Origin: Candidatus Omnitrophota bacterium
Lineage (GTDB): Bacteria > Omnitrophota > Gorgyraeia > Tantalellales > Tantalellaceae
Assembly (NCBI GenBank): GCA_015231405.1
Contig: JADGBR010000003.1
Span: forward strand, 93,549 to 157,548
Length of the DNA stretch: 64,000 bases
Reading direction: 5' to 3'
Part shown: in pieces, positions 4,648 through 53,139 of the stretch
How positions within the stretch are numbered: the first letter of the stretch is position 1
Layout of the letters: the number at the start of each line of letters is the position of its first letter
The notes under the pieces: model-generated
Seen by the model: the letters and a program-made list of their open reading frames with translations, nothing else
The model's database searches: none
What the model was told of the DNA's origin: nothing
Translations under genes and position numbers: made by a program

Positions 4648-4656
4648 TGTTATAAT
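4648..4656 (+). promoter_or_regulatory. possible extended -10 element (tgtTATAAT) in the AT-rich divergent intergenic region
   Basis: tggtatgttataatg lies 15 nt upstream of the ATG at 4672. There is no SD, so a leaderless or short-leader transcript is possible. It could also be a chance AT-rich match. Confidence 0.25.
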
Positions 4657-4671
4657 GTTGGCCTTATTATC

Positions 4672-37627: not shown

Positions 37628-37824
37628 ATAATAATACCCACAACGACCCAACTACTCGAATAAACCCCCGTTGCTCTCAGAAGTTAGGGCGAGGAGGTGC
37701 ACTTTTGTATCAAACGTTAAGACAACAAAATTCAGCATACCATCTATTGTATTTGTTAACCATATGGGTATATTTAATAAGAATGTAATTAATAACAATT
37801 GTGAAGGGAAAACTGTGCCCAATT

Positions 37825-40800
37825 ATGAATAACTTTAATAAACAATTAATACTAAGAATTATCTCCTTGTCCACCGCTATCGTATTTCTGTTCCAGAGTA
37901 CGGTATACGGGGAAGCTCCGGCAATTACGGAAAGGTCGATAGAAAAGATAATTATCCCGGGGGAACTGGCTTCTGTGAAAAGCTCGAGCTTCACGGGGGG
38001 CGGGGATATTATCGTCCATATACAGGACGCGCATTGCGATCTTAACGGACAGCTTGCCATATCCAAAATACTTGAATATCTGGAAAAGAGATACGCCCTT
38101 AAGGATATTTATCTTGAAGGAGGGTCCGGAGGGTATGACCTTTCGATATTTAAAAGCATAGCGGATACCGGTGTCAGGCGGCAGGTTTCGGAAAAGTTCC
38201 TTGCTATGGGAGAGATAAGTGCGGCGGAATATTACGCAGTGAACGCGGATATAGCGCCTCTCCTTCAAGGCGTCGAGGACCCTGAACTGTATATCAGGAA
38301 CCTCGACGTATACAGGGGATCAAAGCTATATCGTGATAAAGCCCTGGAAATAGTGAACGCGGCCGGCAAGCGTTTGGACGAGCTCAAAACCCGGATAATG
38401 GGAAAAGAGCTTTTGGAACTGGAAACAAAATACGCCGCTTATTCGAACGATTCTCTTAAGATCAGGGATTACCTGGCATATCTATTCGTCGCAGCCGCTA
38501 AAACCGGATGCGATATCGGCGGTCTTCCGGAAGGGATATCACGATTGAAGAGCGTTCTCGACTCTGAGGAAAAAGTCAATTTCGGCAAGGCCGAAATTGA
38601 CCGGGAAAAGCTTTTGGGCATTCTTTTGGCGAGGTTGCCAGAGACGCGGAAAGAAGATCTTGTAAGGATGGTAGTCGCCTTCAAGCGCGGGGAGATATCG
38701 GGAGCGGAGTTTTACGGGTACCTTACAAAGAGAGCCGAAGAATCCGGCGTGGACGTCTCGTCCCAAATGAAAGATCTCGTGGCCTATGCCGGGTATGTCA
38801 GGGATTACGCCGAAATAGACAGGTCTTCGATCATGGACGGTATCGAGGCTCTTAAGACCGCTATATCCGAAAAATTTATTACCCGGGATGAAGAAAGAAC
38901 GCTTATCCGGCTCGATGAAGGGTTCGGGATGATCAAAAAGATATTCAATTTCAGCGTAACGAGCTCGGAATACAAAAAAGCCCTTAGTATGGATATCGCT
39001 GAGATGTATGGGGAGCTAGAGGCGCTTAACGGGAAGGGAGAGAACTCCGTGGACGCTCCGGAGCTTAAAGACTATTTCGATAGGATCAAGCCTTTTTATG
39101 AACACTCACTTCGAAGGGATGAGGTATTCATTGGCAATATACCCAGTGGGAACAAAGGCTCAGCCCCCCGCGTCATCGCTCTCGTTACCGGAGGGTTCCA
39201 TTCGGAAAACCTGTATGAGTTATTCAAAAAAAGAGGGTTTTCATATATTTCTGTCATACCTGAATTTTCGATATCCGAAGGTGAGAACCGCTATTTTGAT
39301 ATCCTTTCGGGCGAACAGTGCGGGCTTTCAAAAAGGATAAGTGCGGCCGTATCGTCTCTTCAGGTGGCGAGCAAATTGAACTTAGGGCTTGGAACAAAAA
39401 TATGGGGCGAGAGGGGCATCGAGGATTTCGAGGCGGCGCTGTATACGGAAGCGCTGGCCGAAAGCGGGTACAGGGTAGAGATAACGGATGAAAGCACCGG
39501 GGAGGTCGTATTCTCTAACGGGGACGAAAAAAACACCCTAATAAAGATCGGCAAAAACCGATTTTTATCGGACGTCCATCAAGAGTTCATCGATAAGGTC
39601 ATGACGGAAGACGAGAAGAATTACCGTGACCTTAACCCTATGGAAAGAAGCGCGGCCGAAAGGGCAGTTAGAGATATTATCGCGATAATGCCGGATACCA
39701 CGACACAGGATAGATCGGCCCGGTCGTCAGTTGAGGGACTGCTTGGGGTTAAGGCGCTTACCGGAAAAGAAGGCATCCGCGTATCGCTGAAACTTGAAGA
39801 AAGTAGACGCGACGGGCATGCCGGGGGCTGGGGAATAAGGATACGTGAGGAGCTCACCGACGAAGACGCGGTCTATAAAGTGATAAGGCATGAGATCCTT
39901 GCGGGGTTACTCAGGAATCACTCTATGGTCGGGGCGGTCGAAGGGTTTATGGATACGGATGAAACCCAAAGCGCCAGGGCATTCATGGCCGACGCGGAGA
40001 ACCGGCATGAAGGGATGAATGCCCTGTGGGATATCGAAGACAACGCGCGGCATAACATCGAAAGGGATCATTCGACTAAGGGCGGCGAAAAAGAGATAAA
40101 GGACGAGGATGTGCGTGAAATACTCGCCGAAAGGAAGTTCCTTGAACCGTCCGAAAGAGAAGAGCTGGTCAGGTTCATTATGGGATTTCATAAAGATTAT
40201 GACAAATACCTGAGCGTGATGAGGTCGAATAGCCCGGATCCTGCTAGATATAAAATATCTATCAGGGAGATAAAACGGTTCGCCGTGGAGGTCGAGAGGA
40301 TATTTAAAAAAGTGCTGAGCGAGAAAGAGACACGCGTGGAAGCGCTTAGTGTCGCCCGCGGGCAGTCTCTTTTTAATGTATACCTGGATTTTGTGGCCGG
40401 TGACGAAATAGTGGAGGCGAATAGGCGTACAGGGTATAAATTCCCTGATGTGGAATTGGGAGTGTGGAGTCAGAACCTTATCACGAGCTATGGGGCAGCT
40501 GATCGTTATTATGTAGATGGCCTCGCGAGAAAAGGCGAACAATTCGATACTAATATTTTCCAGAACACTGAGAGGAAACTGGGATACGCCCTGGAAAGCG
40601 GCATGCCGTCGCTTTTTATCAAGAACGATAACTCCCTTGGGGCCTTCGAGCAAGCGCTTTCAAAATATGTTTCCGAGAACAACGCCGAACTCCATTCCAT
40701 GCAGTGCACCCCATACAGCGACACGACCCAGCTCCTTGGCGGATATGTCCCCCGGGAAAGGGTGAATAAGGGCGAGGCGTACAAAATAATAGAGGGGATA

Positions 40801-43800
40801 ATAGGGGATGACGCCGAGATACGCGGAATACTCGAAAAACTCCTTTCGAGAGAACCCCTCGATAAGGAAATACGGGATTTTAAGGAACTATACGCTAAAA
40901 AAGAAGCCGACGGGTTAATTATAGCCGCGGCGATGGTCAAAAAGAACCCGGATAACTGGCGGAAGAAGCTGGTTTACGAAAAGGGGCTATTGGCCCGTAT
41001 CATCGAAAAATGCAATAAGGAGGGTGGTAAGACATTTATCCTTAACCTTGAGAACGTCGAGGCCCTGCCCGGGAGGGTGCGAGCCCAGCTTAATACGTTC
41101 CTACTTAACGGCGAAATGAGAGTTCCCGGGGCGGACTCGGAAGAGATGCGAAAACTGGTCATGCCGTCTAACCTCAGGATAATAGCGACGATGGGCGAAG
41201 GGTCGGTCCTCGAGGACGGAGCTTTTTATGACAGGTTCGTGAGGAAAAGCGTCGGCGAATGCGATCCCGGAGATCTCAGGGAAGCTATCGAGCGGGACTA
41301 TCCCGGCTTTCCGGAAAGCGTTGTCAAATTGCTCATAATAACATATCACAAATTCAGGGAAAAAGGGATCGAATGCACTGCCAGGGATTTTTTGAATATC
41401 TCGGGTTATGTGTACGGGAGAGCGAAAAACGGGAGTGTCCAAAAAATGTTCAAAGCAGCGGTGGAGGAGATCATCGGCTATTTTACCGTAAGGGACGAAA
41501 ACAGGTATTCATTCACCGATTACGCCGTGGAAATAGAAGCGGCGGCCGAAAATAGCTTTGACGCAAATTTTCTCAGGAAAGTCGGCCCGTCCATCAGGGA
41601 GATGGACCCGTTTGAGATAAAGATAGAATATTCCAAGGGAAGAAAAGAGCTGGTGGTGAACGGGATAGGCCTCCCGGTCAGAAAGGAGATGGGGTCTGCC
41701 ATGCAAGGGGTCATAGACGCCATGAATAAAGCGTCGGAAGGGTTGCCTGAAGAGTTGGCGATAAAACAGGCCCTTGTTGACGAGCTGGATTTTGTGCTCA
41801 CAAAAGATTCAAAAAAGATGTTATGGGCCGTCGCGCGCGCGTATAAGTACGGCAACGGTTTCGTCTGCCTCGAGGGTGTTACCGGAGCAGGTAAGACTTA
41901 TACCGCCGAGATGCTGAGTAAACTCATAGATTTCAAGCGTCCCCAAGGTGAAAGCCGTTTTTACTCCGAACCCGTCGACGCCCAGACGAAAATATCCAGG
42001 TATGTCGGCATGTTCAGGACGGATGAATACGGCTACTATTCGCTCGATAAGACAACCCCTTTCCTCGATATCATAGAGAACGGCGGCGTCGCGGCCATAT
42101 CCGAGATGAACACGGCCGTCAAGGACGACTACGCCAAGCTCGGCTGGTGGTTCAACCAGTTCGCCCGCGGCGACGAAGTCATTTCATTGACGGAATACCC
42201 GGGTTACGGCCCTCTCGGGGCGATGAGCCGTACGGTGAAGAGAAACCCGAGATGTATAGTGATCGTCGACATCAACCCCGAGGATTATGAGGCGAGGGGA
42301 AAACTTCCGGAGGAATTGAGGTCTTATGCCCAAAGGGTATCGGTATCCAAGACCGAAAATAAAGATGACCTTGAATTCGCCGCGTGGGCCTTTCTTAAAC
42401 AGATAACGGATGATAGGAAACGCTGGGCCATTGCTAAACAATTAGCTCTTTATCATCAGGCGCTGGAGGCTGAAGTGATAGCCGCCAATGGAAGAGGTGA
42501 AAGGCATCCGCCGTTAAGTTTCAGGGAGCTTAAAAGGATTTGTAAGGGCGTGAATAATGACTCTGACGTCTTTGCCGCTATAAAAGATGTAAGGGCCCTG
42601 ATCGGGAAGTACTATATCCCGGCGTTCAGGTCAAAAGAAAAACAAGCTGAACTGAGAGACCAGTTCGGAATAAAGGACTATAGCCCTGAAAAAGTGGTAG
42701 AAGAGCTTATTCTCGCTCCGGCCGGAGAAAGGTCCCCTCCGGCGATGGTATTTACATCCGCCGAAGACGATCCGATGGCGGAGCTTGATACCATTACAAA
42801 AGATAAGGACATGGTCACCGTTGAAAAGACTTTGATCACACTTTTTATCGACGAGTTTAAACTTTTGGGCGGATATGTGCCGGTCTCTAACGACTTAACC
42901 CCTGAAAAAGCGGCTGAGCGCATCGGCGTATACTCGAAAGAAGCTCCGGAAAATATAGGATATCTGGGGGAACTATTTCAGGAAATCGCCCAAAAACCTC
43001 TTCCCGCAGATCTGGAACAACTTACCCATCCTGAAGTGCTGAGTCTCGCCGCTGCCCTGGATTCGCTCCGAAACGGCCGTGACTGGCGCGAAAAACTGCG
43101 TTGGGAAAGAGGGATAATACCTCGTCTGATGAAAGAAGCGAGAGAAAACCCAACCAGGACATACATTCTCGCCCTCGAGAATTTTCACAGGATCCGCCCG
43201 GGCGTGGCCGTAGCCTTGAACAGCATCCTCCAGGAAGGCGAATATTACGACCCGGTCTCGAAAAAGAAAGAGACCGTTCCGCCTAACCTCAGGTTCTACG
43301 CGACCGCGATAGAGGAAGCCGAGCTCCCCATATCCATGGCGGAGGAATCGAGGTGGGTGAGGATACATAAGGGGATGAAAACTCAGGGTGAAAAGAAAAG
43401 TGAATTGATCGAATATGCCCGGAAACTCGTTTTGGAAAAGATCAACGCCGGGGAACTACAGTTTGTCGGTAATTATTCCCCCATTGGGTTTACTCGTAGT
43501 GAACAGGCTTTAACCGTGTCTGAAACGATCGTCAGTTCCATCGGAGATGAATTCTTGGAGCTATTCAATGTACCGCAACATAAGGAATACATAGATTCCG
43601 TTATAAACCAGGCTTTTTCTGAAGGGCCGGTAACTACCTCTGAGAGGTGGATTTATGCCCAAAGAATGAGCAAGTATTTGGTATATGGGGCTGCGATGAA
43701 AGCATCTGATAAAGCGGAACATTTTGAAAAAGGTAAACCTTCGCTATGTCCGAGATTATCCGAAAAGGATCAAGACATAAATCTATACGCCATTAAAATG

Positions 43801-46800
43801 TCCAAGAGAAGGATGGAGTGGCGTATTTATGCCGAATTCATCGAATTGTTCGATAGGAACTTTTTCGATTACATAAGCGAAATAAAAGATATGATGTCCA
43901 TGCCTGATATTCTTGCTTGCGTAGACGGGATAATTGAAGAATACGCTGAATATCATGAAAGTCTGAAACCCGGTATGGTCATTGGTAACTATGATTTATT
44001 GCAGAAAATATCGTTAAGGCAGATCAATAAATACATAAGCCGCAACTGTTTTGATAATAATCTTGCTGATAAAACCCCTATGGCAGGCTCGACAGCTAAT
44101 CTCCTCGAAGAAGTCGACGAACTCGTCGAGATCGAAGCCGCTACCTTCCAGGCTTTCAAGAACGGCAAAGTCGTCATTTACGAAGGCGCTCCCGGCGGCG
44201 GCAAGACCGACATGGGTATAGACGTAGCGAACCGCATGGGCCTTAAGAACTTCGTCTATTCCTGCCATGGGAGAGTTCACTCATCTGACCTTCTCGGCGG
44301 GTTCAGACAGGACAAAAGGGGCAATTTCATTTTTACCGGCGAGCCGGACGACGCCGGCAATTTTAAATATAACCCGTTCCTCCAAATGCTCACCCACGGA
44401 GGCGTATTCATATTCGACGAAGGGGCCATAGGCAAAAGGTCACAGGAACTTCTCAGTCTCCTCTCTGGCATCGCGAGGGGCGATAAAGACTTCTTCGTTA
44501 ACGAGCTCCCCGGAAAACCGGCGAGAAAACTTGAGGTCCATAAAGATTTTCACATAATAATTACGATGAACCCCGCCGAAGATACTCCCGGCCGCGAGCC
44601 ACTGCCGCTCGAACTCTATAACCACGCGAGAAGGATCTGGGTGCCGGGGAAAATGTCGGAAGAGTCTTACCGGAAGATAATCACGCGCTTCTTCAAAGAC
44701 GCTTGCGCCAGAAATAAAGTAAACCCTGAGGATATCTTCGCCTCCAACGAAAAAAGCCGCAAAATGTTCTCGGACCTCATAACCGAGATCCATTTCATCA
44801 TCAACGAAATGGTAGGCGAAAGCGTGAGCCTTGAAGAGAGCACAAACCTTCATCTTCTTACACTCAGAGATATGAAGAAACTGGTTAAAGACTTCGTGAA
44901 ACTCTACGCCGCCGGGGTGGATAAAACGGAAGCGCTGAGGCTAGCCATAAGAACAGAATACTTAAGTCAGTTCGACGCGAGATCCGACCGCAACCTCATC
45001 AAGCTCCGTCTCGACGGTACTTTCCTCGGCGCCGGCAAAAAGGAGATGGCCGACCAATTCCAAACCGAAAAAATATACCTGGGGACGGTGATATCGACCA
45101 TGGGGAAACCAGTCGACCCGGAGACGCTTAAGCTGATAGACAGGAAACGGCAAAAACAAGGTGAGCTGCAAACTCCCGGAATGAGGACGGAAAAACCATT
45201 ATCTCCATTTGAGCCCGGTAATGTTGCCCGCCTCCCCGGCGACGTTTTAAAGAAGCCCGCCAGATTCGCGAAAGACTGGCGGGAGATAAATGGGGATCCG
45301 GGTATCGATCAGGGACGGGAACGGGGGACGGTCGAGGTGGCCGAAGAGAAGTCTTTGGCGCTTTTTGACAGGTTCAGCCCTACCGACGGTGAAGCGGTCT
45401 ATTGGAAGGAAACAGCGAAGGATCGTATAGCCACACCCCAGACCGTTGTTCCGCTAGAAGGCCCGGGTGAACTACCAGCCGATCTGGATACCCGAATGGC
45501 ATTCGAGCAAAAAGCCTTTACCTATAGTGAGACTGTTCCCGAGATCATCGCGGGAAAGTTGGGCGAGGGTAAGGGCGTTATGAACGCTTTATACTCCGAA
45601 TGGTCAATTACGGAACTTTACAAGACATTGAAGATTGGAGATAAGCGTGTTACGGGTATAGAGGTAATAGAGATCGGAGGCGAAGAATGCCTGGTCACAT
45701 CGGCCGGTAAGGCTGTTCAGGTGTGGCGGAAGACGCCCTCGGGATGGGATGTAACGACGCTTCTCGGGAGTACCCGGGGTATCAACGTTTTAAGAACGAT
45801 AAAGCGCGGCGGTAAAACATGCATAGTGACAGGTTCTGTCTCTGGTCTAGTGATGATGTGGGAACCGGACGGAGGCGGGTGGAAAGCTACTCGGTTATAC
45901 GGCTATGCCGGCAATGACGTAACAGCTTTAGCCGTTATGAGGAGAGTTGTCGACGGAGAGGAAAAAGAATGCCTGGTTACCGGCGGAAGTGACGGGAAGA
46001 TCTATCTATACGAGGAAGGTAAAGACGGGTGGGGATACACTTGTTTTAAAGTGGGATCGGAGCCTATACTCAGTCTGGAAGTCATGAAATTTAAAGACAA
46101 GGGTAACAGTATTGTAGCGGCCGGCGGATACGGTACCGTAAAGGCTCTATATTCTCCTGGCGGGAATGACTGGGCCGGGGAGTATGTTTTCAGCGAGAGG
46201 TGGTCTACGGGATCTTTTATCTGCCCCGATAAAACTGAGAACGGAACGTTTTTTACGAGCGGGTACGTCGATAATGTGACGGATATGTCGGGTGTCTGGC
46301 GCTTCGAGCCGGGCGCGACGGACAATGCGGGTGTTATTTACGACGCACATGCTAAAGGAGCCGTCCGGGACATGAAAGGATTCGGGCTTAACGGTGAAAA
46401 TATGTACGTTTCGGCGGGTCTTGACGGTAGGATCATATTATGGAAAGAGGCAAAAGAGAAACCCGCTTCCGGTGAACAGCCGTCGCTTATGCCGATAAAC
46501 GTCCTCTTTGAAAAAGAAGACGTAAAGTTCAATAAACTCCTGGTCACCGACATCGAGATAGGAGGTAAATCACGGAAATGCGTCCTCGCCGGGACCACGA
46601 CCGGCGAGGTCATGATCTTCAACCTCGAGCAGGAGAAGTATATCGAGGAGAACAAGCGGCGCCTCGCTCCGGAGGATCCGGAAGCCGCTCTGCCCGTGCC
46701 GGAAAAGCCCGAACTCCCGTACGGTTTGGGCGAAGAAGCTATTTTCAGGCCTACTGAATTCGCGGATGCGGGGCGGATATTCGATAGGGAGATAACGGGG

Positions 46801-49800
46801 GATGAGATAGACGCGATGAGTGCCGGACTGGTCGCGAAGGCCGGGCGAATGGTGTCGAAAGAGGTCCCTTCAAGAAGCGTAACGGGCGGAGCGGATATGC
46901 CCCGTCAAAAAGACATTGCATGCTATAAAACTGACGAATTCGAGGATGCTTTAGGTGCTCCTGTGGAAGAGAAAGCGTCCTTTTCTGATATGCCGGATGA
47001 CATGGAAGGGTTAATGGATGGAGAGAAATACTTCATGTATATTGAGCGGAATAAATACGCGGACGTCTTGAAAAATACGACTTTTAGACAAAAAGATAAA
47101 AGATTAAGCGAGCTGATCAATAAAATAGACCTGAAATGCAAAGTTAGCGGCATCAAGGTGTTTAAGGTCGGGAGCAAAGAGTGTATCGCTTATAGCGATT
47201 ATAACGGATGGTTAAGGATAATCGATTTCTCTACAGGGACGGTGCTGAACATAAAAGCCAATTCATCGATCATTTGCGGTATTTACAGCATGGAAATATT
47301 ACAACACGGAGATGAGACCGTCATAGTTACCTCCGGCGAGAAGAATAAACTTCGCAGATGGTCGATGACTGAAAAAGGGCTTACCGAAGGGAAAGTCACC
47401 GTCAGGAGTATGGATATATATACAGGGGAAATACCGATACGCAAAATGCGAAAGGGCGGGAAAGAATGTATCGTTGTCTGCGGAAGGGACAATACGATAA
47501 TGATCATTGAAGAGTTCGTTCAAGAAGATAATGCCGGGCGTGTAGTGGATAAGATAAAACGAACGATACTCGCGTCCAGGAATTGGCAGCTTAATCGTTT
47601 TTCTGTTTTGGAAGAGCTTGACGGTAACGACAGTATTGTCGCTTCTCATTCGACTCACACCGGGCAGCCTGACGGGGCTGACGCGTTGTGTCTGTGGAGT
47701 AATACCGGGGACGGATGGGATATGAAAATGATCGAGCCGGTGGATGGTTCGGGGAATGAAGTTAAAAGGCAAAATGATGTCCCGTTCATCGAGGGTGAAG
47801 AATGCCAGCTCCTGGACACGATATCGCTTTCCGGGGGTGGCAATAACTTGATAGTTACGGCTCCCAAGGATCCGGGCAATGAGATACTCGCTAAACATCT
47901 CAGGATATACAAAATGGACGGGAAAAGCGGTTGGGAAGTAATGAATTTATACGGTGTATTTGAAGGATACACAGCTCCCTCGGGACGTGATCTGATCGGA
48001 AAGGTTCAAAATGTGAAAACAGTCAAAGCCGGCGGGAGATCGTACGTTTTGATCAACGATATTCTTCAAAATCTGAGAGTTTGTGATTTTGCCTCGAATA
48101 CGGTCAGAATTTTGGAAATAGTCGATGAAGATCAGCTACATTGGAATTCAATAGTAGGAGCCGAGGGAATGGAGACGGGGGGATTATTAGTGACTTGTTC
48201 GAATGGAGGCGAACTGAAATTCTGGGACTTAAACCTTCAAGATAAAATAAAATACGAGAAAGTTGCCGTCGCGGCTGCGAAGTCGGGGTCGGGTGAGGGT
48301 GATGCCTTTCCTTCTCCTTCCGATGAAGCGTATCCCGAGATCGAGCTTCCGGAAGAGCCGGCTATTAACGAGACGCGTCTTGCGCTGAAACTTTCCGGGC
48401 GGGTGCTGCTTATCGCGCAGCCGGGGGCTAGGGAGAAGGTTATCGTTGATGAATCGGCGAAGCGCGAAGGGATAAAGGACGTGTATTCCATTGAAGGCAG
48501 TCCGTCGCTCACCGTTTTCGATATGTTCGGCGGGCTTTTTCCTCTGCTTGAGGGTGAGGAAAGGCCGTCCGGGGAGGATCTGGTCTTTAAAAAAGGATTT
48601 TTCACAAGGCACATGATCACCGAGGAGGAATATCTTAGGGATTACGGCGAGGATGACGAGCCCCGGCTTCTTGTCATACACAATATTGACGCCGTGCCCG
48701 AGAAAGTCAGGGCGGCGGTCAATAATCTTCTCCTTAACGGCTTCATAGAGATACCCGGCGAGGGTGAGAACGGCCGGCTTTATCTTCCGGAGAACATAAA
48801 GATCATAGCCACGATAAACGCTAACAGCCAGCGGGATTTCTCGAGCGCTTTCCCAAACAGGTTTACCCGGGTCAACGCATCGGAAATGGAAACGTCGCCT
48901 TACTGGCTTAGCCAGTTCGTTCAATATGTGATGAGGGTTTACGGGTTCGATAATGAGCTGGCCGGAAGCATCGAGATGGTGCATTGCATGATAAAAAGGC
49001 TGGAGGACGGAGGCAGTTTCTGGCCTTCGGGTTACGTGTACGGGTTCACGGTCAAAGACGCTTTGACGGCGGCGAAATTCATTTCGCTCGGGCTAAAAGA
49101 AAGGGCAATGTTAGGGCAGGCTGTTACTAAGAAGGATGAGACGGAAATAGCCGTAAGGGAGATCATCAGGGCTTACGGTTTACGTCTTAAACAGAGCGAT
49201 AAAGATTATGACAATTTTGTGGACCTGATCCTGAAGAGGATATTCGACCACGATAAAGATATGGTCGACGCCGTTTCGGGCGAGATAAGGATATCCGGCG
49301 GGAAATTGTCATCCATATCGGATATCCCGGTGAACCCGACCCAGAAAGGTAAACACCCGTACGCGATAGACAAGAATTACAGGCTGACCATGGTGAAAAG
49401 CATCGTCCGTACCATATCCGGCGTTCTACGCGGATTCCAGGCCGGGAAGATCGTCTCCCTGACCGGCGAAACCGGCGTCGCCAAGACCACGATAGGAGTC
49501 GCGCTCGCTGAAAGCCTGGGGATGGATAGCTATGTCTTCAGCATGCATAAAGATGTTAAGTCTTACGATTTTACGGCAGGTATCAGGGCGACAGATGCCG
49601 GTCAGTACCGGCTTGACTTGTCGGATTTCGCCGAAAAATTAAAGTCCGGGAACACCGTCCTTGTTGTCGACGAAGCTAACATTAAACCCGAGATATTATG
49701 GATACTCTCAGGGATCGCCCGCGGCGAGAGGAAATTCTCCATCGAAGTGCCCGGAGAAAAGCCTATAGAATTCCGGCTCGGAGATAACATATATATCCTC

Positions 49801-52800
49801 TTTACGATGAATCCCGAGGATTACGAAGGCGGAAGGGATATCATCCCACAGCCTGTCAAGGAGGATATATTCAATATATGGGCCCCGTCGGAGTATCCGG
49901 ACCCGGAGCTTACGGCGATCGTCAACGAGTTCTTCGACGGGTATAGCGTTCTTGATAATATTAAGGAGGAAAAAAAGAAGGAAGAGATAGAAGGCATGGA
50001 TCTGGACGAGAGGATGCTCCGGCTTTTCAAATACTTGCGCCATGGCTACGCTCTTACGACCATAGAGGATATCGTCGCCTCTATAGAAGAGAAAGGTTTT
50101 AAGGCCGCGCTTATGGAATATCTCGCTGTAAAGCCGGCGGACGATACTAGAGAGGCTAAAAAAGCGGCAAGGAAAGAGGCCAAGGCGCGAAGAATAGAGC
50201 TCAAATCTATCGAGAAAGAAATGCTGGAACGCGGCGAGGTCAAAACGAAGATGGACAAAATAAGGTTCCTCGTCAAATCCTCATGGGATATTCAGAAAGA
50301 CTTGAACGACGAGGACGAGGTCGAGATAAAATTCAGTCTATTCACGTGGTGGAGCACGACGGTCGTGGAAAGGACGCGCGCCGGAGGGAGGGTTAAGGTC
50401 CGGGTAATTTATGTGCCTTTATATGAGCTTGTGAAGAGGAAGGGCGAGCCGGGAGCCGCACCAAAAGAGAAAAGCGAGGGGGTCATTGCCGCGGTTATTC
50501 TTCACGAGTTCAGGCACAAACTGTACTCACCCAGGTCCGAAGAATATCGGGATGAGATCAAACCGTTGTTGGAGGGGTCTCTTACCCCCGAAGAAATGGA
50601 GTTTTTCGCAAATCTTACCCGAGAGAAACAGAAGATCGACGGCGAGTTCATGGGGTTTGATAACCTGATCGAGGATATAAGGATAAATAACATAGAGAAC
50701 CCGAGACTGAAAGGGGAAAAAAGGCTTTTTAACGCGCTCTTGGAACATCAGTACGGGAATATCCTTGTTCCGGAGCCGGATATGCTCCCGAATATATTTG
50801 AGCGGGCGCAAATGGCGCCGCATACATTACTGCACGATGATCTTCTCGCCTATGGCGCTTTCGGACGGCACAGCTGGTATTTTGATTCGCTTCCGGACGA
50901 GCTAAGGGAGGATATAAGGAGCTTGACCGACGGCCCGGATTCTCCGGTTTACAGGGCTACACTCCATAGATCGGTAAAACCGGATCTCACAGGCGTCAAA
51001 AGTCACTTCGATATGAAAAAAGAAAAACTGAGAGCCGAGGCTGAACGGATCAAAGTTTTTCTTAAGGAGATAAACCCGGTTTTCCAGAAATGGCTTAAAA
51101 GAGCCGCGGAGGCCCCCAAAGATGGAGAAGCCGGCAAGGGAGGCGCGGGCGGAGCCCAGGGAGTGCCTTCGTTCATAGACCTCCCTCCGGAGTTCGCGGA
51201 TATGTTCGATAAGCCTGAAGGCGGCGAGGGAGAGGAAGGGTCAGAAGGCGGATCCAGCGTGAATATCGTGGGTGAGGATGGATCCCGGGAGGAATTAGGT
51301 GAGGGTGATGGGGAGGGGGCCGAAGAAGGCGAAGCGGATGGAACGGAAACCCCCGGAGGAATAGAAGAAGCTACTCCTTCCGCCGGTAACCCTGACCATA
51401 CTGAAGAAGGTGAAAAAGCCTCGGGCTCCGCAAAGCCGCCGCTACCCGGTGAAGGCGGCGAGGAGCCTTCGAGAGGCGACAAGTTCGACAAGAGCGTTAA
51501 GGATATCGAGAAGAAAAGGAAGGAAGAGCTTAAACAGGAGCCTTTCAACGAGCGTTTGACGGAAGTGAGTGAGGTGGCGAAAAGGCTGGCCAAAGGGTTT
51601 ATAAATATTTTCCGCGTGCCGGGCGAGCCGGATGTTGAGGAGACCCCCTTCGGCCGCATTATAAACGCCGTGCGTTATATCATCGGCAGCAATGTTCCGT
51701 TCGACGAAGACGCCGATACTTTGGGCGCGCCCGACCTCGCGTTCGGCATGACTATCGACGCGAGCGGAAGCATGGTAGACGCTTACCCGGCGCTTAAACG
51801 CCTGAGCGCTATACTCTTATCCGCTTTTCAGCAGATAGGTAATAAGGCGGAACTGTCCATCACGATGGATAATAAGGAAGTATCGACCATAAAAAGTTTC
51901 AGCCAGAAATTCAAGCAGGAACACCTTAACGCCATGCAGACAAAAATAGAGGATAAAATAGGGGAGGGCGGTAACGGCATACATCTCTACGACACGATGA
52001 TGGAGATAATCAATAAGTATAAAGGGTGCAGGAAGAATAATAAGCTGGAGGTGATATTTACCGACGCGGGCGATACGGGTAAGGATCTGTACCTGGATCG
52101 TGGCGGGAAATTGTGCTGCACCGAAAGGCTGGACGAAGCTTTCAAAAAAGCGAAAAGCATGGGGATAACTATTATCGGCGTAGGTTTTGGCGACAGTTAT
52201 GTCGAGGTTTTTGATAGTTACCTTAACCTCAATAAGGACAATGTCGACGCCATAGTCGGCGCGATGCTATCCATAGGGAGCGTCAAAGCCAAAACCGGTA
52301 AAGTCCCGTCGGGTGACCTTTCGGAAGTACTTGACCTCGGGAAAAGCGGGACTTTGAAAAGCGGGGCATCCGGGAGATCAAGGCTTTCGGGGGAAAGGAA
52401 ATATACGGTCGTAAAGATGAGCGAAGCGCCGAAAGCGAATAATTTATCCGAAACTCGTAACTTATCGACGACTGTCTCCCCGCGGACAAAGGCTATGTCC
52501 GAACTATGGAAGAACATGACAAGGGATATAGTCATCCTTCCCGAGACCGAACTTTACACTTCCGACGAAATGGGCGCGAGGAAAAACGCTAGAGTACTCG
52601 ATAAAAAATACGCTCAGACCACCGTTACGTTCGGGTACGCCTATAACGGTGATTGGAAAAATAACCTGAAGGGCGTAATGGAGAAAGCAAAAGAACAGCT
52701 ATCCGGAGACCTCGCGAAGGGTGATTCCAAGACCAGGGCGATAGTGTATGTGCCGGAAGAGGCTGACGGTGATCTCATGGAAGCCATGTTCGGCGAGCTG

Positions 52801-53139
52801 GAGATCGGAGAAACGCTTAAGGAAAGAATTACCGTCGTCAGGGAAAGAAACCTTGAGAATGATATCCCCATCGAGGTCGCGCGGCATATAACCCTCGGCA
52901 AGGTCCTCCTTAACTATGAAAGGTTCAGAAAAAAAGATTTCGATATAGAGATGAACGCCGGAGAAATATCCGCCCTTATAGGCATGGTGAGAGACGCTGT
53001 AAAAGGTCACGGGAATATAACTCTCGCCTTCGTAGAGGAACTAGTTAAAGGCCTCGCCGTATTTGAGGCTGAAAAGTTCGCCTTCACGACAATAACCGAC
53101 TGGAAAGCGCGCGAAGAGAAGTTCATTAAGTCGGTGTAA
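37825..53139 (+). CDS. giant midasin/MoxR-like protein: signal/anchor + about 1000-aa N-terminal region + six AAA_5-type ATPase modules (three active, three degenerate) + WD40-like beta-propellers + D/E-rich tract + C-terminal VWA (MIDAS) domain
   Basis: The ORF is uninterrupted for 15.3 kb. The N-terminus is MNNFNKQLILRIISLSTAIVFLFQSTVYG. The Walker A motifs are GVTGAGKT (nt 41875), GAPGGGKT (nt 44185) and GETGVAKT (nt 49465), with Walker B IFDEG and VVDEAN. Dynein/midasin-type sensor segments are ...LNGEMRVPG...NLRIIATM, FHIIITMNPAED and IYILFTMNPEDY. The acidic tract is nt 51190-51480. The MIDAS motif is DASGSM...TDAGDTG (nt 51757). Confidence 0.85.
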   Translation: MNNFNKQLILRIISLSTAIVFLFQSTVYGEAPAITERSIEKIIIPGELASVKSSSFTGGGDIIVHIQDAHCDLNGQLAISKILEYLEKRYALKDIYLEGGSGGYDLSIFKSIADTGVRRQVSEKFLAMGEISAAEYYAVNADIAPLLQGVEDPELYIRNLDVYRGSKLYRDKALEIVNAAGKRLDELKTRIMGKELLELETKYAAYSNDSLKIRDYLAYLFVAAAKTGCDIGGLPEGISRLKSVLDSEEKVNFGKAEIDREKLLGILLARLPETRKEDLVRMVVAFKRGEISGAEFYGYLTKRAEESGVDVSSQMKDLVAYAGYVRDYAEIDRSSIMDGIEALKTAISEKFITRDEERTLIRLDEGFGMIKKIFNFSVTSSEYKKALSMDIAEMYGELEALNGKGENSVDAPELKDYFDRIKPFYEHSLRRDEVFIGNIPSGNKGSAPRVIALVTGGFHSENLYELFKKRGFSYISVIPEFSISEGENRYFDILSGEQCGLSKRISAAVSSLQVASKLNLGLGTKIWGERGIEDFEAALYTEALAESGYRVEITDESTGEVVFSNGDEKNTLIKIGKNRFLSDVHQEFIDKVMTEDEKNYRDLNPMERSAAERAVRDIIAIMPDTTTQDRSARSSVEGLLGVKALTGKEGIRVSLKLEESRRDGHAGGWGIRIREELTDEDAVYKVIRHEILAGLLRNHSMVGAVEGFMDTDETQSARAFMADAENRHEGMNALWDIEDNARHNIERDHSTKGGEKEIKDEDVREILAERKFLEPSEREELVRFIMGFHKDYDKYLSVMRSNSPDPARYKISIREIKRFAVEVERIFKKVLSEKETRVEALSVARGQSLFNVYLDFVAGDEIVEANRRTGYKFPDVELGVWSQNLITSYGAADRYYVDGLARKGEQFDTNIFQNTERKLGYALESGMPSLFIKNDNSLGAFEQALSKYVSENNAELHSMQCTPYSDTTQLLGGYVPRERVNKGEAYKIIEGIIGDDAEIRGILEKLLSREPLDKEIRDFKELYAKKEADGLIIAAAMVKKNPDNWRKKLVYEKGLLARIIEKCNKEGGKTFILNLENVEALPGRVRAQLNTFLLNGEMRVPGADSEEMRKLVMPSNLRIIATMGEGSVLEDGAFYDRFVRKSVGECDPGDLREAIERDYPGFPESVVKLLIITYHKFREKGIECTARDFLNISGYVYGRAKNGSVQKMFKAAVEEIIGYFTVRDENRYSFTDYAVEIEAAAENSFDANFLRKVGPSIREMDPFEIKIEYSKGRKELVVNGIGLPVRKEMGSAMQGVIDAMNKASEGLPEELAIKQALVDELDFVLTKDSKKMLWAVARAYKYGNGFVCLEGVTGAGKTYTAEMLSKLIDFKRPQGESRFYSEPVDAQTKISRYVGMFRTDEYGYYSLDKTTPFLDIIENGGVAAISEMNTAVKDDYAKLGWWFNQFARGDEVISLTEYPGYGPLGAMSRTVKRNPRCIVIVDINPEDYEARGKLPEELRSYAQRVSVSKTENKDDLEFAAWAFLKQITDDRKRWAIAKQLALYHQALEAEVIAANGRGERHPPLSFRELKRICKGVNNDSDVFAAIKDVRALIGKYYIPAFRSKEKQAELRDQFGIKDYSPEKVVEELILAPAGERSPPAMVFTSAEDDPMAELDTITKDKDMVTVEKTLITLFIDEFKLLGGYVPVSNDLTPEKAAERIGVYSKEAPENIGYLGELFQEIAQKPLPADLEQLTHPEVLSLAAALDSLRNGRDWREKLRWERGIIPRLMKEARENPTRTYILALENFHRIRPGVAVALNSILQEGEYYDPVSKKKETVPPNLRFYATAIEEAELPISMAEESRWVRIHKGMKTQGEKKSELIEYARKLVLEKINAGELQFVGNYSPIGFTRSEQALTVSETIVSSIGDEFLELFNVPQHKEYIDSVINQAFSEGPVTTSERWIYAQRMSKYLVYGAAMKASDKAEHFEKGKPSLCPRLSEKDQDINLYAIKMSKRRMEWRIYAEFIELFDRNFFDYISEIKDMMSMPDILACVDGIIEEYAEYHESLKPGMVIGNYDLLQKISLRQINKYISRNCFDNNLADKTPMAGSTANLLEEVDELVEIEAATFQAFKNGKVVIYEGAPGGGKTDMGIDVANRMGLKNFVYSCHGRVHSSDLLGGFRQDKRGNFIFTGEPDDAGNFKYNPFLQMLTHGGVFIFDEGAIGKRSQELLSLLSGIARGDKDFFVNELPGKPARKLEVHKDFHIIITMNPAEDTPGREPLPLELYNHARRIWVPGKMSEESYRKIITRFFKDACARNKVNPEDIFASNEKSRKMFSDLITEIHFIINEMVGESVSLEESTNLHLLTLRDMKKLVKDFVKLYAAGVDKTEALRLAIRTEYLSQFDARSDRNLIKLRLDGTFLGAGKKEMADQFQTEKIYLGTVISTMGKPVDPETLKLIDRKRQKQGELQTPGMRTEKPLSPFEPGNVARLPGDVLKKPARFAKDWREINGDPGIDQGRERGTVEVAEEKSLALFDRFSPTDGEAVYWKETAKDRIATPQTVVPLEGPGELPADLDTRMAFEQKAFTYSETVPEIIAGKLGEGKGVMNALYSEWSITELYKTLKIGDKRVTGIEVIEIGGEECLVTSAGKAVQVWRKTPSGWDVTTLLGSTRGINVLRTIKRGGKTCIVTGSVSGLVMMWEPDGGGWKATRLYGYAGNDVTALAVMRRVVDGEEKECLVTGGSDGKIYLYEEGKDGWGYTCFKVGSEPILSLEVMKFKDKGNSIVAAGGYGTVKALYSPGGNDWAGEYVFSERWSTGSFICPDKTENGTFFTSGYVDNVTDMSGVWRFEPGATDNAGVIYDAHAKGAVRDMKGFGLNGENMYVSAGLDGRIILWKEAKEKPASGEQPSLMPINVLFEKEDVKFNKLLVTDIEIGGKSRKCVLAGTTTGEVMIFNLEQEKYIEENKRRLAPEDPEAALPVPEKPELPYGLGEEAIFRPTEFADAGRIFDREITGDEIDAMSAGLVAKAGRMVSKEVPSRSVTGGADMPRQKDIACYKTDEFEDALGAPVEEKASFSDMPDDMEGLMDGEKYFMYIERNKYADVLKNTTFRQKDKRLSELINKIDLKCKVSGIKVFKVGSKECIAYSDYNGWLRIIDFSTGTVLNIKANSSIICGIYSMEILQHGDETVIVTSGEKNKLRRWSMTEKGLTEGKVTVRSMDIYTGEIPIRKMRKGGKECIVVCGRDNTIMIIEEFVQEDNAGRVVDKIKRTILASRNWQLNRFSVLEELDGNDSIVASHSTHTGQPDGADALCLWSNTGDGWDMKMIEPVDGSGNEVKRQNDVPFIEGEECQLLDTISLSGGGNNLIVTAPKDPGNEILAKHLRIYKMDGKSGWEVMNLYGVFEGYTAPSGRDLIGKVQNVKTVKAGGRSYVLINDILQNLRVCDFASNTVRILEIVDEDQLHWNSIVGAEGMETGGLLVTCSNGGELKFWDLNLQDKIKYEKVAVAAAKSGSGEGDAFPSPSDEAYPEIELPEEPAINETRLALKLSGRVLLIAQPGAREKVIVDESAKREGIKDVYSIEGSPSLTVFDMFGGLFPLLEGEERPSGEDLVFKKGFFTRHMITEEEYLRDYGEDDEPRLLVIHNIDAVPEKVRAAVNNLLLNGFIEIPGEGENGRLYLPENIKIIATINANSQRDFSSAFPNRFTRVNASEMETSPYWLSQFVQYVMRVYGFDNELAGSIEMVHCMIKRLEDGGSFWPSGYVYGFTVKDALTAAKFISLGLKERAMLGQAVTKKDETEIAVREIIRAYGLRLKQSDKDYDNFVDLILKRIFDHDKDMVDAVSGEIRISGGKLSSISDIPVNPTQKGKHPYAIDKNYRLTMVKSIVRTISGVLRGFQAGKIVSLTGETGVAKTTIGVALAESLGMDSYVFSMHKDVKSYDFTAGIRATDAGQYRLDLSDFAEKLKSGNTVLVVDEANIKPEILWILSGIARGERKFSIEVPGEKPIEFRLGDNIYILFTMNPEDYEGGRDIIPQPVKEDIFNIWAPSEYPDPELTAIVNEFFDGYSVLDNIKEEKKKEEIEGMDLDERMLRLFKYLRHGYALTTIEDIVASIEEKGFKAALMEYLAVKPADDTREAKKAARKEAKARRIELKSIEKEMLERGEVKTKMDKIRFLVKSSWDIQKDLNDEDEVEIKFSLFTWWSTTVVERTRAGGRVKVRVIYVPLYELVKRKGEPGAAPKEKSEGVIAAVILHEFRHKLYSPRSEEYRDEIKPLLEGSLTPEEMEFFANLTREKQKIDGEFMGFDNLIEDIRINNIENPRLKGEKRLFNALLEHQYGNILVPEPDMLPNIFERAQMAPHTLLHDDLLAYGAFGRHSWYFDSLPDELREDIRSLTDGPDSPVYRATLHRSVKPDLTGVKSHFDMKKEKLRAEAERIKVFLKEINPVFQKWLKRAAEAPKDGEAGKGGAGGAQGVPSFIDLPPEFADMFDKPEGGEGEEGSEGGSSVNIVGEDGSREELGEGDGEGAEEGEADGTETPGGIEEATPSAGNPDHTEEGEKASGSAKPPLPGEGGEEPSRGDKFDKSVKDIEKKRKEELKQEPFNERLTEVSEVAKRLAKGFINIFRVPGEPDVEETPFGRIINAVRYIIGSNVPFDEDADTLGAPDLAFGMTIDASGSMVDAYPALKRLSAILLSAFQQIGNKAELSITMDNKEVSTIKSFSQKFKQEHLNAMQTKIEDKIGEGGNGIHLYDTMMEIINKYKGCRKNNKLEVIFTDAGDTGKDLYLDRGGKLCCTERLDEAFKKAKSMGITIIGVGFGDSYVEVFDSYLNLNKDNVDAIVGAMLSIGSVKAKTGKVPSGDLSEVLDLGKSGTLKSGASGRSRLSGERKYTVVKMSEAPKANNLSETRNLSTTVSPRTKAMSELWKNMTRDIVILPETELYTSDEMGARKNARVLDKKYAQTTVTFGYAYNGDWKNNLKGVMEKAKEQLSGDLAKGDSKTRAIVYVPEEADGDLMEAMFGELEIGETLKERITVVRERNLENDIPIEVARHITLGKVLLNYERFRKKDFDIEMNAGEISALIGMVRDAVKGHGNITLAFVEELVKGLAVFEAEKFAFTTITDWKAREEKFIKSV

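What the first reader, a model, noticed from the sequence alone, without database searches (positions are those of the whole stretch)
45640..48240. WD40-like beta-propeller repeat region embedded between AAA pairs 2 and 3 of the giant protein
Repeats of about 45 aa recur at least 10 times. Their pattern is [KE]ECLVTG..DG.I.LWE....GW, with variants KTCIVTGSVSGLVMMWEPDGGGW, KECLVTGGSDGKIYLYEEGKDGW, KCVLAGTTTGEVMIFNL, ETVIVTSGEKNKLRRWSM, KECIVVCGRDNTIMIIEE and GLLVTCSNGGELKFWDL. That is enough for one or two propellers. In eukaryotes the midasin MIDAS docks onto WD40-repeat assembly factors (Ytm1, Rsa4). Here a propeller is part of the same chain. That suggests a self-contained substrate-handling machine, or an intramolecular MIDAS ligand.
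Basis: partly seen in the sequence, partly recalled or inferred. Interest (0 to 1): 0.6.

Follow-up and report, generated by a model that had tools for sequence, protein, structure and literature searches.

The report
Two WD40 propellers inside bacterial midasin-like ATPase
A 5,112-residue Omnitrophota protein built like the eukaryotic motor midasin carries two seven-bladed WD40 propellers between its fourth and fifth ATPase modules, and because this cassette changes in number and sequence between relatives it is probably the part that recognises the machine's target.

Summary
Window 45619-48240 (aa 2607-3480 of the 5,112-aa ORF 37801-53139) holds 14 blade repeats. They form two seven-bladed WD40-type propellers joined by a disordered linker of about 170 aa. 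Support: Pfam WD40 scores above its threshold; phmmer E is 2e-15 against 1.8 billion proteins; blade HMMs cross-validate between the two halves; an AlphaFold model gives pLDDT 85 and 73; Foldseek hits are tandem-propeller proteins such as Elp2, Utp and Apaf-1.

The pair lies exactly between AAA4 (catalytic) and AAA5 (degenerate) of a six-module AAA_5 chain. That chain continues into a conserved HExxH motif, an acidic tether and a MIDAS/VWA domain.

Homologues carry 0, 1, 2 or at least 3 propellers at this junction. The propellers diverge much faster than the AAA core (about 18% against 57% identity). They resemble each other within a protein more than across orthologues. Their nearest outside relatives are the 14-WD40 sensor arrays of bacterial STAND NTPases.

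I infer a swappable target-recognition cassette. This is a new variant of known parts, of moderate to high interest.

The parts
37801..53139 (+). Giant ORF of 5,112 aa (GenBank MBF0215968.1, 'AAA family ATPase', starting 8 codons later), from a Candidatus Omnitrophota MAG
44101..44973 (+). AAA4. AAA_5 module with Walker A GAPGGGKT (aa 2129) and Walker B FIFDE. It is the last module before the insert.
   Evidence: Pfam AAA_5 E 6e-11; motifs; homologue maps
44974..45618 (+). Pre-insert linker (aa 2392-2606). No recognisable domain. The first 'ELP' unit-start motif lies at aa 2557 (nt 45469-45477).
45619..46638 (+). Propeller 1 (aa 2607-2946). Seven four-stranded WD40-type blades. The N-terminal strand YKTLK closes blade 7.
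46639..47142 (+). Inter-propeller linker (aa 2947-3114). Short helical tail, then a Pro- and acid-rich segment (22% D+E) containing PEKPELP (aa 2971). Predicted disordered.
   Evidence: pLDDT about 36; composition; motif; no PDB match
47143..48240 (+). Propeller 2 (aa 3115-3480). Seven blades, more divergent, with long inserts in blades 4 and 5. Blade 5 also resembles FG-GAP_2 repeats.
48241..48399 (+). Tail plus third ELP motif (aa 3515), leading into ETRLALKLSGRVLLIAQPGAREK at the start of AAA5
   Evidence: the same junction sequence is seen in P0001, L005 and L002
48400..48915 (+). AAA5. Degenerate AAA+ module: P-loop QPGAREKV, with 'HN' in place of the Walker B 'DE'.
49378..49950 (+). AAA6. 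AAA_5 module with Walker A GETGVAKT and Walker B LVVDE. Its best PDB sequence match is midasin.
50503..50517 (+). HEFRH (HExxH) motif, conserved in five homologues. Context only.
51118..51492 (+). Acidic, Gly-rich tether of 125 aa (34 D/E, 30 G). Context only.
51739..52320 (+). VWA domain with MIDAS motif DASGS (aa 4653). Context only.

Best explanation
Shown. The region encodes two tandem seven-bladed WD40-type beta-propellers. Each is followed by a short helical tail and a Pro-rich 'ELP' connector. The pair is inserted as a flexibly tethered cassette in the interdomain link between AAA4 and AAA5 of a single-chain, six-module MoxR/midasin-type AAA+ protein. That protein also carries a conserved HExxH motif, an acidic tether and a C-terminal MIDAS/VWA domain. 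Among homologues the cassette varies in copy number (0, 1, 2 or at least 3), and its sequence diverges much faster than the ATPase core.

Inferred. The propellers are the machine's exchangeable target-recognition or docking platform. They would hold the ring on a protein or complex. The MIDAS domain, on its acidic tether, would grip an acidic ligand residue. ATP turnover in AAA4 and AAA6 would supply the pulling or remodelling force. This resembles the way tandem WD40 arrays act as ligand sensors in STAND NTPases, and the way Rea1/midasin works on WD40-anchored substrates. The target itself is unknown.
For: Fold and count:
- Pfam WD40 scores above its gathering threshold.
- phmmer E values are 2e-15 to 1e-12 to canonical WD40 proteins in a library of 1.84 billion proteins.
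- Blade HMMs cross-validate between the two halves and hit nothing elsewhere in the protein.
- 14-blade WD40 arrays align colinearly: 7 blades on each half and a gap over the linker.
- The AlphaFold model built on that alignment has pLDDT 85 for propeller 1, 73 for propeller 2 and 36 for the linker.
- Foldseek top hits are tandem double-propeller proteins (Elp2, SSU-processome WD proteins, Aip1, DDB1, Apaf-1), all at probability 1.0 and E about 1e-15.

Position:
- In P0002 the gap between AAA4 and AAA5 is about 47 aa, against 1,143 aa here.

Variable cassette:
- No propeller in P0002/L004 and L001. One in L003. Two in the window and L002. At least three in P0001/L007. One is visible directly upstream of AAA5 in the short fragment L005.

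Fast evolution:
- P0001 is 57% identical in AAA5-6. BLAST finds nothing in its propeller part, and MAFFT identity there is 18%.
- Propellers within one protein are more alike (Smith-Waterman z = 12, 45 and 17.5) than propellers of orthologues (z of 10 or less).

Relatives:
- The best outside hits are proteins of 1,200-1,400 aa with NB-ARC/APAF1_C or NACHT-type NTPase domains, one also with EAD8, and a 14-WD40 C-terminal array.

Flexible tethering:
- The flanking segments have no domain match, and the inter-propeller linker (the only flanking segment that was modelled) has low model confidence.
Against: - No binding partner, ligand or structural interface has been observed. The function is inferred from architecture and evolutionary pattern only.
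- The AlphaFold alignment was made of WD40 proteins, so the model is not fully independent of the hypothesis. This matters most for propeller 2, which has no significant single-sequence PDB hit.
- Only seven related loci or fragments are known, several truncated or frameshifted. Copy-number counts and rate comparisons therefore rest on few genomes.
- Fast divergence could reflect relaxed constraint rather than changing specificity.
- The N-terminal signal-peptide-like segment leaves the cellular compartment uncertain.
Confidence: 0.5

Rival explanations
1. Regulatory clutch. The propellers fold back onto the AAA ring near AAA4/AAA5 and gate ATPase activity or MIDAS docking. This would be like the two WD40 propellers of Lis1, which bind dynein at AAA3/AAA4 and at the stalk (own knowledge).
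For: - The insert emerges next to AAA4, one of only two modules with a full Walker A and Walker B.
- There are two propellers, as in a Lis1 dimer.
- The position is topologically comparable to the dynein stalk region.
Against: - A clutch that contacts a conserved ring should itself be conserved. Instead copy number ranges from 0 to at least 3, and sequence diverges far faster than the ring.
- The cassette is flanked by long linkers: about 215 aa before it, about 170 aa between the propellers (predicted disordered) and about 50 aa after it (the outer two were not modelled).
Confidence: 0.12
2. Scaffold or anchor. The propellers mediate self-association of the giant protein, or attach it to an envelope structure such as the neighbouring secreted FecR/DUF11/OmpL-like protein. 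They would not select a substrate.
For: - WD40 propellers are generic assembly platforms.
- The next gene (53594-58939) encodes a signal-peptide protein with FecR, DUF11, SdrD_B and beta-barrel porin domains.
- The giant protein has an N-terminal hydrophobic segment.
- Kaur et al. proposed homotypic propeller contacts in MoxR-vWA propeller systems (PMC7159879).
Against: - The downstream gene is not conserved next to the L002 homologue (no BLAST similarity).
- An anchor to a fixed cellular structure would be expected to be conserved in number and sequence.
Confidence: 0.15
3. Intramolecular MIDAS ligand. An acidic residue on a propeller loop or on the adjacent acidic linker occupies the C-terminal MIDAS site, giving autoinhibition or a closed mechanical loop.
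For: - The MIDAS motif is intact (DASGS).
- The inter-propeller linker is 22% D+E.
- The acidic tether is long enough to reach back.
Against: - In midasin the MIDAS ligand is a UBL domain, not the WD40, and no UBL was found here.
- Homologues without propellers (L001; P0002 lacks the insert at the junction) and homologues with unrelated-looking propellers keep the same MIDAS motif.
- No conserved acidic loop can be identified among the propellers.
Confidence: 0.08
4. Largely neutral repeat expansion. A propeller-forming repeat was amplified in a linker of an already giant protein and persists without a specific role.
For: - Giant Omnitrophota proteins are rich in repeats and poorly conserved (PMC10066038).
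- Within-protein similarity of the propellers suggests repeated local duplication.
Against: - A propeller cassette occupies the same junction in at least five loci, whose ATPase cores are 33-59% identical to the window protein.
- The reading frame is intact over 874 codons.
- The blades keep the hydrophobic core pattern needed to fold.
Confidence: 0.08

Closest known systems
Tandem WD40 sensor arrays of STAND NTPases (bacterial NB-ARC/NACHT-WD40 proteins; Apaf-1)
   Same: - Closest in sequence: E 2e-15 to 1e-12.
- The 14 blades align colinearly as 7 + 7.
- Apaf-1 is among the structural hits.
- In both cases a P-loop NTPase is joined to two propellers.
- These arrays are known as variable ligand-sensing modules (own knowledge).
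   Different: - Here the NTPase is a six-module AAA_5 (MoxR/midasin-type) chain, not a STAND domain.
- The propellers are internal, between two ATPase modules, rather than C-terminal.
- The two propellers are separated by a disordered linker of about 170 aa.
- The blades lack the GH...WD signature.
Midasin (Rea1/Mdn1) with its WD40-containing substrates Rsa4 and Ytm1
   Same: - One chain with six AAA+ modules, an acidic unstructured stretch and a C-terminal MIDAS domain.
- Midasin is the best PDB sequence match.
- WD40 propellers take part in the eukaryotic system.
   Different: - In eukaryotes the WD40 propellers belong to separate substrate proteins, and the MIDAS binds their UBL domains. 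Here the propellers are part of the motor chain and no UBL is detected.
- The bacterial protein alternates degenerate and Walker-A modules.
- It has about 390 aa with an HExxH motif in place of the ~1,700-aa linker.
- It has a signal-peptide-like N-terminus.
MoxR-vWA beta-propeller ternary systems of bacteroidetes, planctomycetes, verrucomicrobia and proteobacteria (Kaur, Burroughs, Iyer, Aravind 2020, PMC7159879)
   Same: A MoxR-clade AAA+ ATPase, a vWA/MIDAS domain and beta-propellers are combined. These systems occur in planctomycetes and verrucomicrobia among other phyla; Omnitrophota is usually grouped with those two phyla in the PVC superphylum (own knowledge).
   Different: - There the three parts are separate proteins.
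[quoted passage not shown]
- Here everything is one polypeptide, the propellers have seven blades, and they lie about 1,170 aa upstream of the vWA, inside the AAA array.
- No PADLOC or NCBIfam model matches.
Dynein heavy chain with Lis1 (own knowledge)
   Same: A single-chain AAA+ ring with an appendage or regulator at the AAA4/AAA5 side. Lis1 contributes two WD40 propellers that bind AAA3/AAA4 and the stalk.
   Different: - In dynein the propellers are a separate dimeric protein, and the covalent insert is a coiled-coil stalk.
- No coiled coil or microtubule-binding domain is present here.
- The resemblance is positional only and was not tested.

Membership tests
WD40 repeat / beta-propeller (Pfam PF00400, clan CL0186) | Sequence matches the WD40 profile above the curated threshold | tested here: met
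   PF00400: E 2.9e-8, 34.3 bits against a cut-off of 27. phmmer hits to canonical WD40 proteins at E 2e-15.
WD40 repeat / beta-propeller (Pfam PF00400, clan CL0186) | Repeats of about 40-60 aa, each forming a four-stranded antiparallel blade, with about seven blades closing into a ring | tested here: met
   There are 14 repeats. The AlphaFold model has 7 + 7 blades of 3-4 strands that match the repeats. An N-terminal strand completes blade 7 of propeller 1. Foldseek hits are to double propellers. Caveat: the model was guided by a WD40 alignment.
WD40 repeat / beta-propeller (Pfam PF00400, clan CL0186) | GH ... WD dipeptide signature in each repeat | tested here: not met
   In the blade alignment no blade has GH. 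Trp ends strand C in 7 of 14 blades, and 'WD' occurs once (FWD, blade 14). The signature is typical but not obligatory, so this is a divergent WD40-type propeller.
Midasin / Rea1 / MDN1 | Six AAA+ modules in one polypeptide | tested here: met
   Three Walker-A AAA_5 modules (aa 1359, 2129, 3889) alternate with three degenerate modules. A profile of the degenerate modules hits midasin at E 5e-7 and McrB at E 2e-3. Internal homology of the pairs is shown by BLAST.
Midasin / Rea1 / MDN1 | C-terminal MIDAS (DxSxS) domain preceded by an acidic unstructured region | tested here: met
   DASGS at aa 4653, conserved in five homologues. VWA has only a weak Pfam hit (E 0.011, 16.4 bits, below the 23.8-bit cut-off). 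The 125-aa stretch aa 4440-4564 has 34 D/E and 30 G.
Midasin / Rea1 / MDN1 | Structured helical linker of about 1,700 aa between AAA6 and the acidic region | tested here: not met
   Only about 390 aa separate AAA6 (ends about aa 4050) from the acidic region (aa 4440). They contain a conserved HExxH motif that midasin lacks.
Midasin / Rea1 / MDN1 | Extracts UBL-WD40 assembly factors (Rsa4, Ytm1) from pre-60S particles in the eukaryotic nucleus | not testable with these tools
   The organism is a bacterium (Candidatus Omnitrophota). No UBL domain was detected. No functional data exist.
MoxR-vWA beta-propeller ternary system (PMC7159879) | Separate MoxR and vWA proteins; a propeller of about four blades fused C-terminal to the vWA; a third variable component with TPR plus propeller | tested here: not met
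   Here there is a single polypeptide. The propellers have seven blades and lie upstream of the vWA. No TPR component is seen next to the gene.
STAND NTPase with WD40 array (Apaf-1-like) | NB-ARC or NACHT NTPase domain N-terminal to the propellers | tested here: not met
   The ATPase modules are AAA_5. STAND profiles gave only a sub-threshold hit (nSTAND3, E 0.0084, 16.3 bits against a cut-off of 27.2). The propeller module alone resembles the STAND arrays.

The most novel reading that the evidence does not exclude
This Omnitrophota/Auribacterota family may be a true bacterial counterpart of the eukaryotic six-AAA mechanoenzymes (ring + acidic tether + MIDAS). Its junction between AAA4 and AAA5, on the side where dynein carries its stalk and binds the WD40 regulator Lis1, would be a built-in socket for rapidly evolving WD40 'heads' whose number varies and which choose the target. 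If so, single-chain AAA+ rings with an appendage at AAA4/5 arose, or arose in parallel, in bacteria. The published view is that six tandem AAA+ domains appeared early in eukaryotic evolution (PMC3495828). In these putatively predatory or parasitic nanobacteria the heads could be tuned to host or prey proteins.
Probability: 0.2. Interest if true: 0.85.

Novelty: new variant of a known kind. Interest (0 to 1): 0.55.

Why it matters
WD40 propellers and MoxR/midasin-type ATPases are both well known. A propeller pair built into the chain of a single-polypeptide AAA+ ring, at one fixed junction, with copy number and sequence changing between relatives, was not described in any library or paper I could search.

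It gives a concrete handle on an otherwise uncharacterised giant bacterial machine. The propellers are small, foldable domains that can be expressed alone and used to fish for the target.

It also bears on how the midasin/dynein design evolved. The published view is that six tandem AAA+ modules arose early in eukaryotes. Here a bacterial lineage has six modules, an acidic tether and a MIDAS domain, plus an appendage on the AAA4/AAA5 side.

Tried and rejected
- The word-indexed homologue search with the whole 897-aa region returned nothing. The exhaustive HMMER search was needed.
- Single-sequence AlphaFold gave an unusable model with pLDDT 37.
- A whole-region alignment that included single-propeller WD40 proteins was rejected. 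MAFFT split each seven-blade homologue across both target propellers. MAFFT on full-length STAND proteins timed out. The alignment finally used has only natural 14-blade arrays.
- Two metagenome scans and one viral scan found no relatives.
- The exact protein is not in the gene-position index.
- TRF found no DNA-level repeat.
- NCBIfam and PADLOC gave only sub-threshold noise.
- PDB sequence searches with the two linkers and with propeller 2 alone were negative.
- Literature searches for a bacterial midasin-like protein, or for AAA/WD40 content in the Omnitrophota giant-gene papers, found only a legend listing AAA_5 among frequent domains.
- I considered PQQ, FG-GAP and lactonase propeller families. 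Only one blade (aa 3339-3378) resembles FG-GAP_2, whereas WD40 families dominate the Pfam hits.
- I considered that the downstream DUF11/FecR gene is a conserved partner. It was rejected because the gene next to the L002 homologue is unrelated.

Full report
**What is there.**

The finding lies inside one uninterrupted ORF, window 37801..53139 (+), of 5,112 codons. The same protein is in GenBank as MBF0215968.1, 'AAA family ATPase', starting 8 codons later. It comes from a 178-kb contig of a Candidatus Omnitrophota MAG and forms a singleton cluster at 90% identity. The surrounding genes are ordinary chromosomal genes: glutamate synthase, CTP synthase, NadA and DnaE.

All the quoted peptide strings are present.

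**Are the repeats real?**

I delimited 14 repeats of 30-71 aa, with a mean of about 50. Seven lie in aa 2617-2946 and seven in aa 3115-3480.

- A blade HMM built only from the first group finds the second group as seven periodic hits (E 2.9e-9). The reverse search gives E 2.7e-13. Neither profile finds anything in the remaining ~4,200 residues.
- Pfam's WD40 model scores 34.3 bits against a gathering score of 27 (E 2.9e-8). Several whole-propeller WD40 families give partial hits in both halves.
- An exhaustive phmmer search of 1.84 billion representatives returned the protein itself. It then returned canonical WD40 proteins at E 2e-15 to 1e-12, some aligned colinearly over about 260 residues (six blades) of the first half.
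- TRF finds no DNA-level repeat, so this is an old protein-level repeat.

**Fold.**

Single-sequence AlphaFold failed with pLDDT 37. The best outside hits turned out to be proteins of 1,200-1,400 aa whose C-terminal 600-700 residues are 14 WD40 repeats.

Aligned to the region, these arrays place seven blades on each half and leave a gap over the middle linker. With a 35-row alignment of such natural 14-blade arrays plus the orthologue fragment P0001, AlphaFold gave mean pLDDT 71. Broken down, that is about 85 for aa 2605-2945, about 36 for the linker and about 73 for aa 3115-3484.

The DSSP strands group into 7 + 7 blades of four strands (three in two blades). They coincide with my sequence repeats. 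The N-terminal strand YKTLK completes the last blade of propeller 1.

Foldseek against the PDB returns tandem double-propeller proteins at probability 1.0 and E about 1e-15. They include Elp2, the WD proteins of the SSU processome, Aip1, DDB1 and Apaf-1.

There is a caveat. The alignment consisted of WD40 proteins, so the model is not independent of the hypothesis. Propeller 2 alone has no significant PDB sequence hit, while propeller 1 has weak hits to ARPC1 and a G-beta-like protein. The case for propeller 2 therefore rests on the shared blade profile, the colinear alignment, the Pfam partial hits and the model together.

The blades are divergent. None has the GH dipeptide. Trp ends strand C in 7 of 14 blades. 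'WD' occurs once. The family-specific signature is GG[KE]EC[LI]VT ... W.E..GGW.

**Where it sits.**

The protein has Walker A motifs at aa 1359, 2129 and 3889, inside Pfam AAA_5 modules. Each is preceded by a degenerate module with no P-loop lysine and with 'EN' or 'HN' instead of the Walker B 'DE'. A profile of these odd-numbered modules hits midasin (6or5, E 5e-7) and McrB. The AAA5-6 segment has midasin as its best PDB match at E 1.6e-10.

The chain is therefore AAA1(degenerate)-AAA2-AAA3(degenerate)-AAA4-[insert]-AAA5(degenerate)-AAA6. Full Walker A and Walker B motifs occur only in AAA4 and AAA6. Downstream come:

- a conserved HE.RH motif (aa 4235);
- a 125-aa acidic, Gly-rich stretch (aa 4440-4564);
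- a VWA domain with a DxSxS MIDAS motif (aa 4653).

The HE.RH and DxSxS motifs are conserved in five homologues; the position and composition of the acidic stretch are.

In the Omnitrophota fragment P0002, AAA4 and AAA5 are about 47 residues apart, against 1,143 here.

**Relatives.**

| Locus or protein | Source | Identity to the window protein | Propellers at the AAA4/AAA5 junction |
|---|---|---|---|
| Window | Omnitrophota MAG | – | 2 |
| P0001 / L007 | ENA metagenome | 57% (AAA5-6) | at least 3 units (2 canonical WD40, the first more degenerate and cut by the contig end), each ending in the same helical tail and P.PELPE connector |
| L005 | 1.5-kb fragment of a bin labelled Planctomycetia | 59% (AAA5) | at least 1, directly upstream of AAA5 |
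| L002 | Omnitrophota, complete 4,972-aa ORF | 35-43% | 2, in a ~930-aa insert; very divergent, motif G.L.IV....I.W.E...G.F |
| L003 | Omnitrophota | 33-41% | 1, of the L002 type |
| L001 | Auribacterota | 34-43% | 0 |
| P0002 / L004 | Omnitrophota | 41-43% | 0 |

My blade HMM detects the L005, L003 and L002 inserts weakly (E 2e-5, 2e-4 and 0.02). It detects nothing in the other ~4,000 aa of the L002 protein.

Propeller number at this one junction is therefore 0, 1, 2 or at least 3. In the window, three 'ELP' motifs (aa 2557, 2971 and 3515) delimit two units of the form connector-linker-propeller-tail. The residues after the first and the third ELP are alike ([DE]TR[ML]A[FL]), as expected if the unit was duplicated at the AAA5 boundary (this is inference).

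**Evolutionary pattern.**

Between the window and P0001 the AAA5-6 core is 57% identical. BLAST finds no similarity in the propeller part, and MAFFT identity there is 18%.

Smith-Waterman z-scores show that propellers within one protein resemble each other more than they resemble propellers in orthologues. Within-protein z is 12 for the window, 45 for P0001 and 17.5 for L002. Across orthologues z is 10 or less. This means lineage-specific duplication or concerted evolution.

The closest relatives outside the family are the C-terminal WD40 arrays of bacterial STAND NTPases. These carry NB-ARC with the APAF1 helical domain, or NACHT/NPHP3_N, and one has an effector-associated domain EAD8. In such proteins the arrays are regarded as ligand sensors (own knowledge).

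**How it most likely works.**

Shown: two propellers sit at a fixed junction of a six-module AAA+ chain that ends in an acidic tether and a MIDAS domain. The cassette varies in number and evolves fast. The inter-propeller linker is predicted disordered, and neither it nor the pre-insert linker matches any known domain.

Inferred: the propellers are an exchangeable recognition or docking head. They would position the motor on its target while the tethered MIDAS grips an acidic residue and AAA4/AAA6 hydrolysis provides force. The conserved HExxH motif hints that cleavage may follow. The target is unknown. I put this at about 0.5.

Rivals, with confidences:

- A Lis1-like clutch on the ring (0.12). 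It is disfavoured by the variability of the cassette and its loose tethering.
- A scaffold or envelope anchor (0.15). The neighbouring FecR/DUF11/porin-like gene is not conserved next to the L002 homologue.
- Neutral repeat expansion (0.08). This is disfavoured because a propeller recurs at the same site in five loci.

Midasin's MIDAS binds the ubiquitin-like domains of Rsa4 and Ytm1. Their WD repeat domains are a separate part of those proteins (PMC8837202). No UBL or other domain is detectable in the linkers here. Homologues lacking propellers keep the MIDAS motif. The intramolecular-ligand idea is thus not excluded, but it has no support.

**Comparison with what is known.**

The propeller module works like, and is most similar in sequence to, STAND/Apaf-1-type tandem WD40 sensors. 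However, the attached NTPase is not a STAND domain.

The whole protein has midasin's order of parts. It lacks the ~1,700-aa linker, alternates dead and live modules, has an HExxH motif and is bacterial.

[quoted passage not shown] Those are three separate proteins, with a ~4-bladed propeller C-terminal to the vWA (PMC7159879).

Zhang et al. state that six tandem AAA+ domains arose early in eukaryotic evolution from MoxR (PMC3495828). I found no paper describing a bacterial six-module MIDAS protein. The Omnitrophota giant-gene preprint only lists AAA_5 among frequent domains. NCBIfam and PADLOC have no model for it.

**Verdict.**

This is a new variant of known kinds: WD40 tandem propellers used as an internal, variable cassette of a single-chain AAA+ ring. 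Interest is 0.55. The propellers themselves are ordinary domains. Their position, their variability and the midasin-like host protein make them a useful and somewhat surprising handle on an uncharacterised bacterial machine.

Noticed in passing
window 37801-53139: The host protein has the midasin order of parts in a bacterium: six AAA+ modules in one chain, a 125-aa acidic/Gly-rich stretch and a C-terminal VWA with DxSxS MIDAS. Midasin is the best PDB sequence match. The literature I could search places the origin of six tandem AAA+ modules in early eukaryotes.
   Followed up: partly
window 50503-50517 (aa 4235-4239): An HExxH motif ([IL]HE.RH..[YF]S) lies between AAA6 and the acidic tether. 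It is conserved in all five homologues examined and may be a metallopeptidase site. The ~530 aa around it have no Pfam match.
   Followed up: partly
window 37846-37905 (aa 16-35); L002 29-150 and 14952-15100: The only strongly hydrophobic segment of the giant protein is an N-terminal, signal-peptide-like stretch (LILRIISLSTAIVFLFQSTV, then YG/EAP). That is odd for an ATP-dependent machine. In L002 the homologue and the next ORF (1,883 aa) share a nearly identical N-terminal stretch of about 80 aa with a similar signal-peptide-like hydrophobic start.
   Followed up: partly
window 40588-43395, 48400-48915: AAA modules alternate. The odd modules lack the P-loop lysine and have EN/HN in place of the Walker B 'DE'. 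AAA2 has a Walker A but 'SE' at the Walker B position. Only AAA4 and AAA6 have both motifs. This suggests triplication of a dead-plus-live pair.
   Followed up: partly
window 47815-47934 (aa 3339-3378, blade 5 of propeller 2): This single blade matches FG-GAP_2 repeat proteins (E about 1e-11 to 1e-5) rather than WD40 proteins. The sequence is DTISLSGGGNNLIVTAPKD...RIYKMDGKSGW.
   Followed up: partly
window 53594-58939: The next gene encodes a 1,781-aa signal-peptide protein with FecR, DUF11, SdrD_B and OmpL-like beta-barrel porin domains, likely a surface or outer-membrane protein. It is not conserved beside the L002 homologue.
   Followed up: partly
window 4642-9012: A 1,456-aa ORF in which Pfam reports two matched stretches of MutS domain V, plus further weak P-loop hits. 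That is unusually long for a MutS2-like protein.
   Followed up: no
window 47299-47898 (-) and 48229-48984 (-): ORFs of 199 and 251 aa lie on the opposite strand inside the giant gene. They are probably shadows of the long coding frame. I did not examine them.
   Followed up: no
L007 1-10884: The orthologue contig (ENA, coverage 1.97x) carries the giant gene broken into many short called genes, probably by frameshift errors. Protein P0001 is therefore only a fragment.
   Followed up: partly
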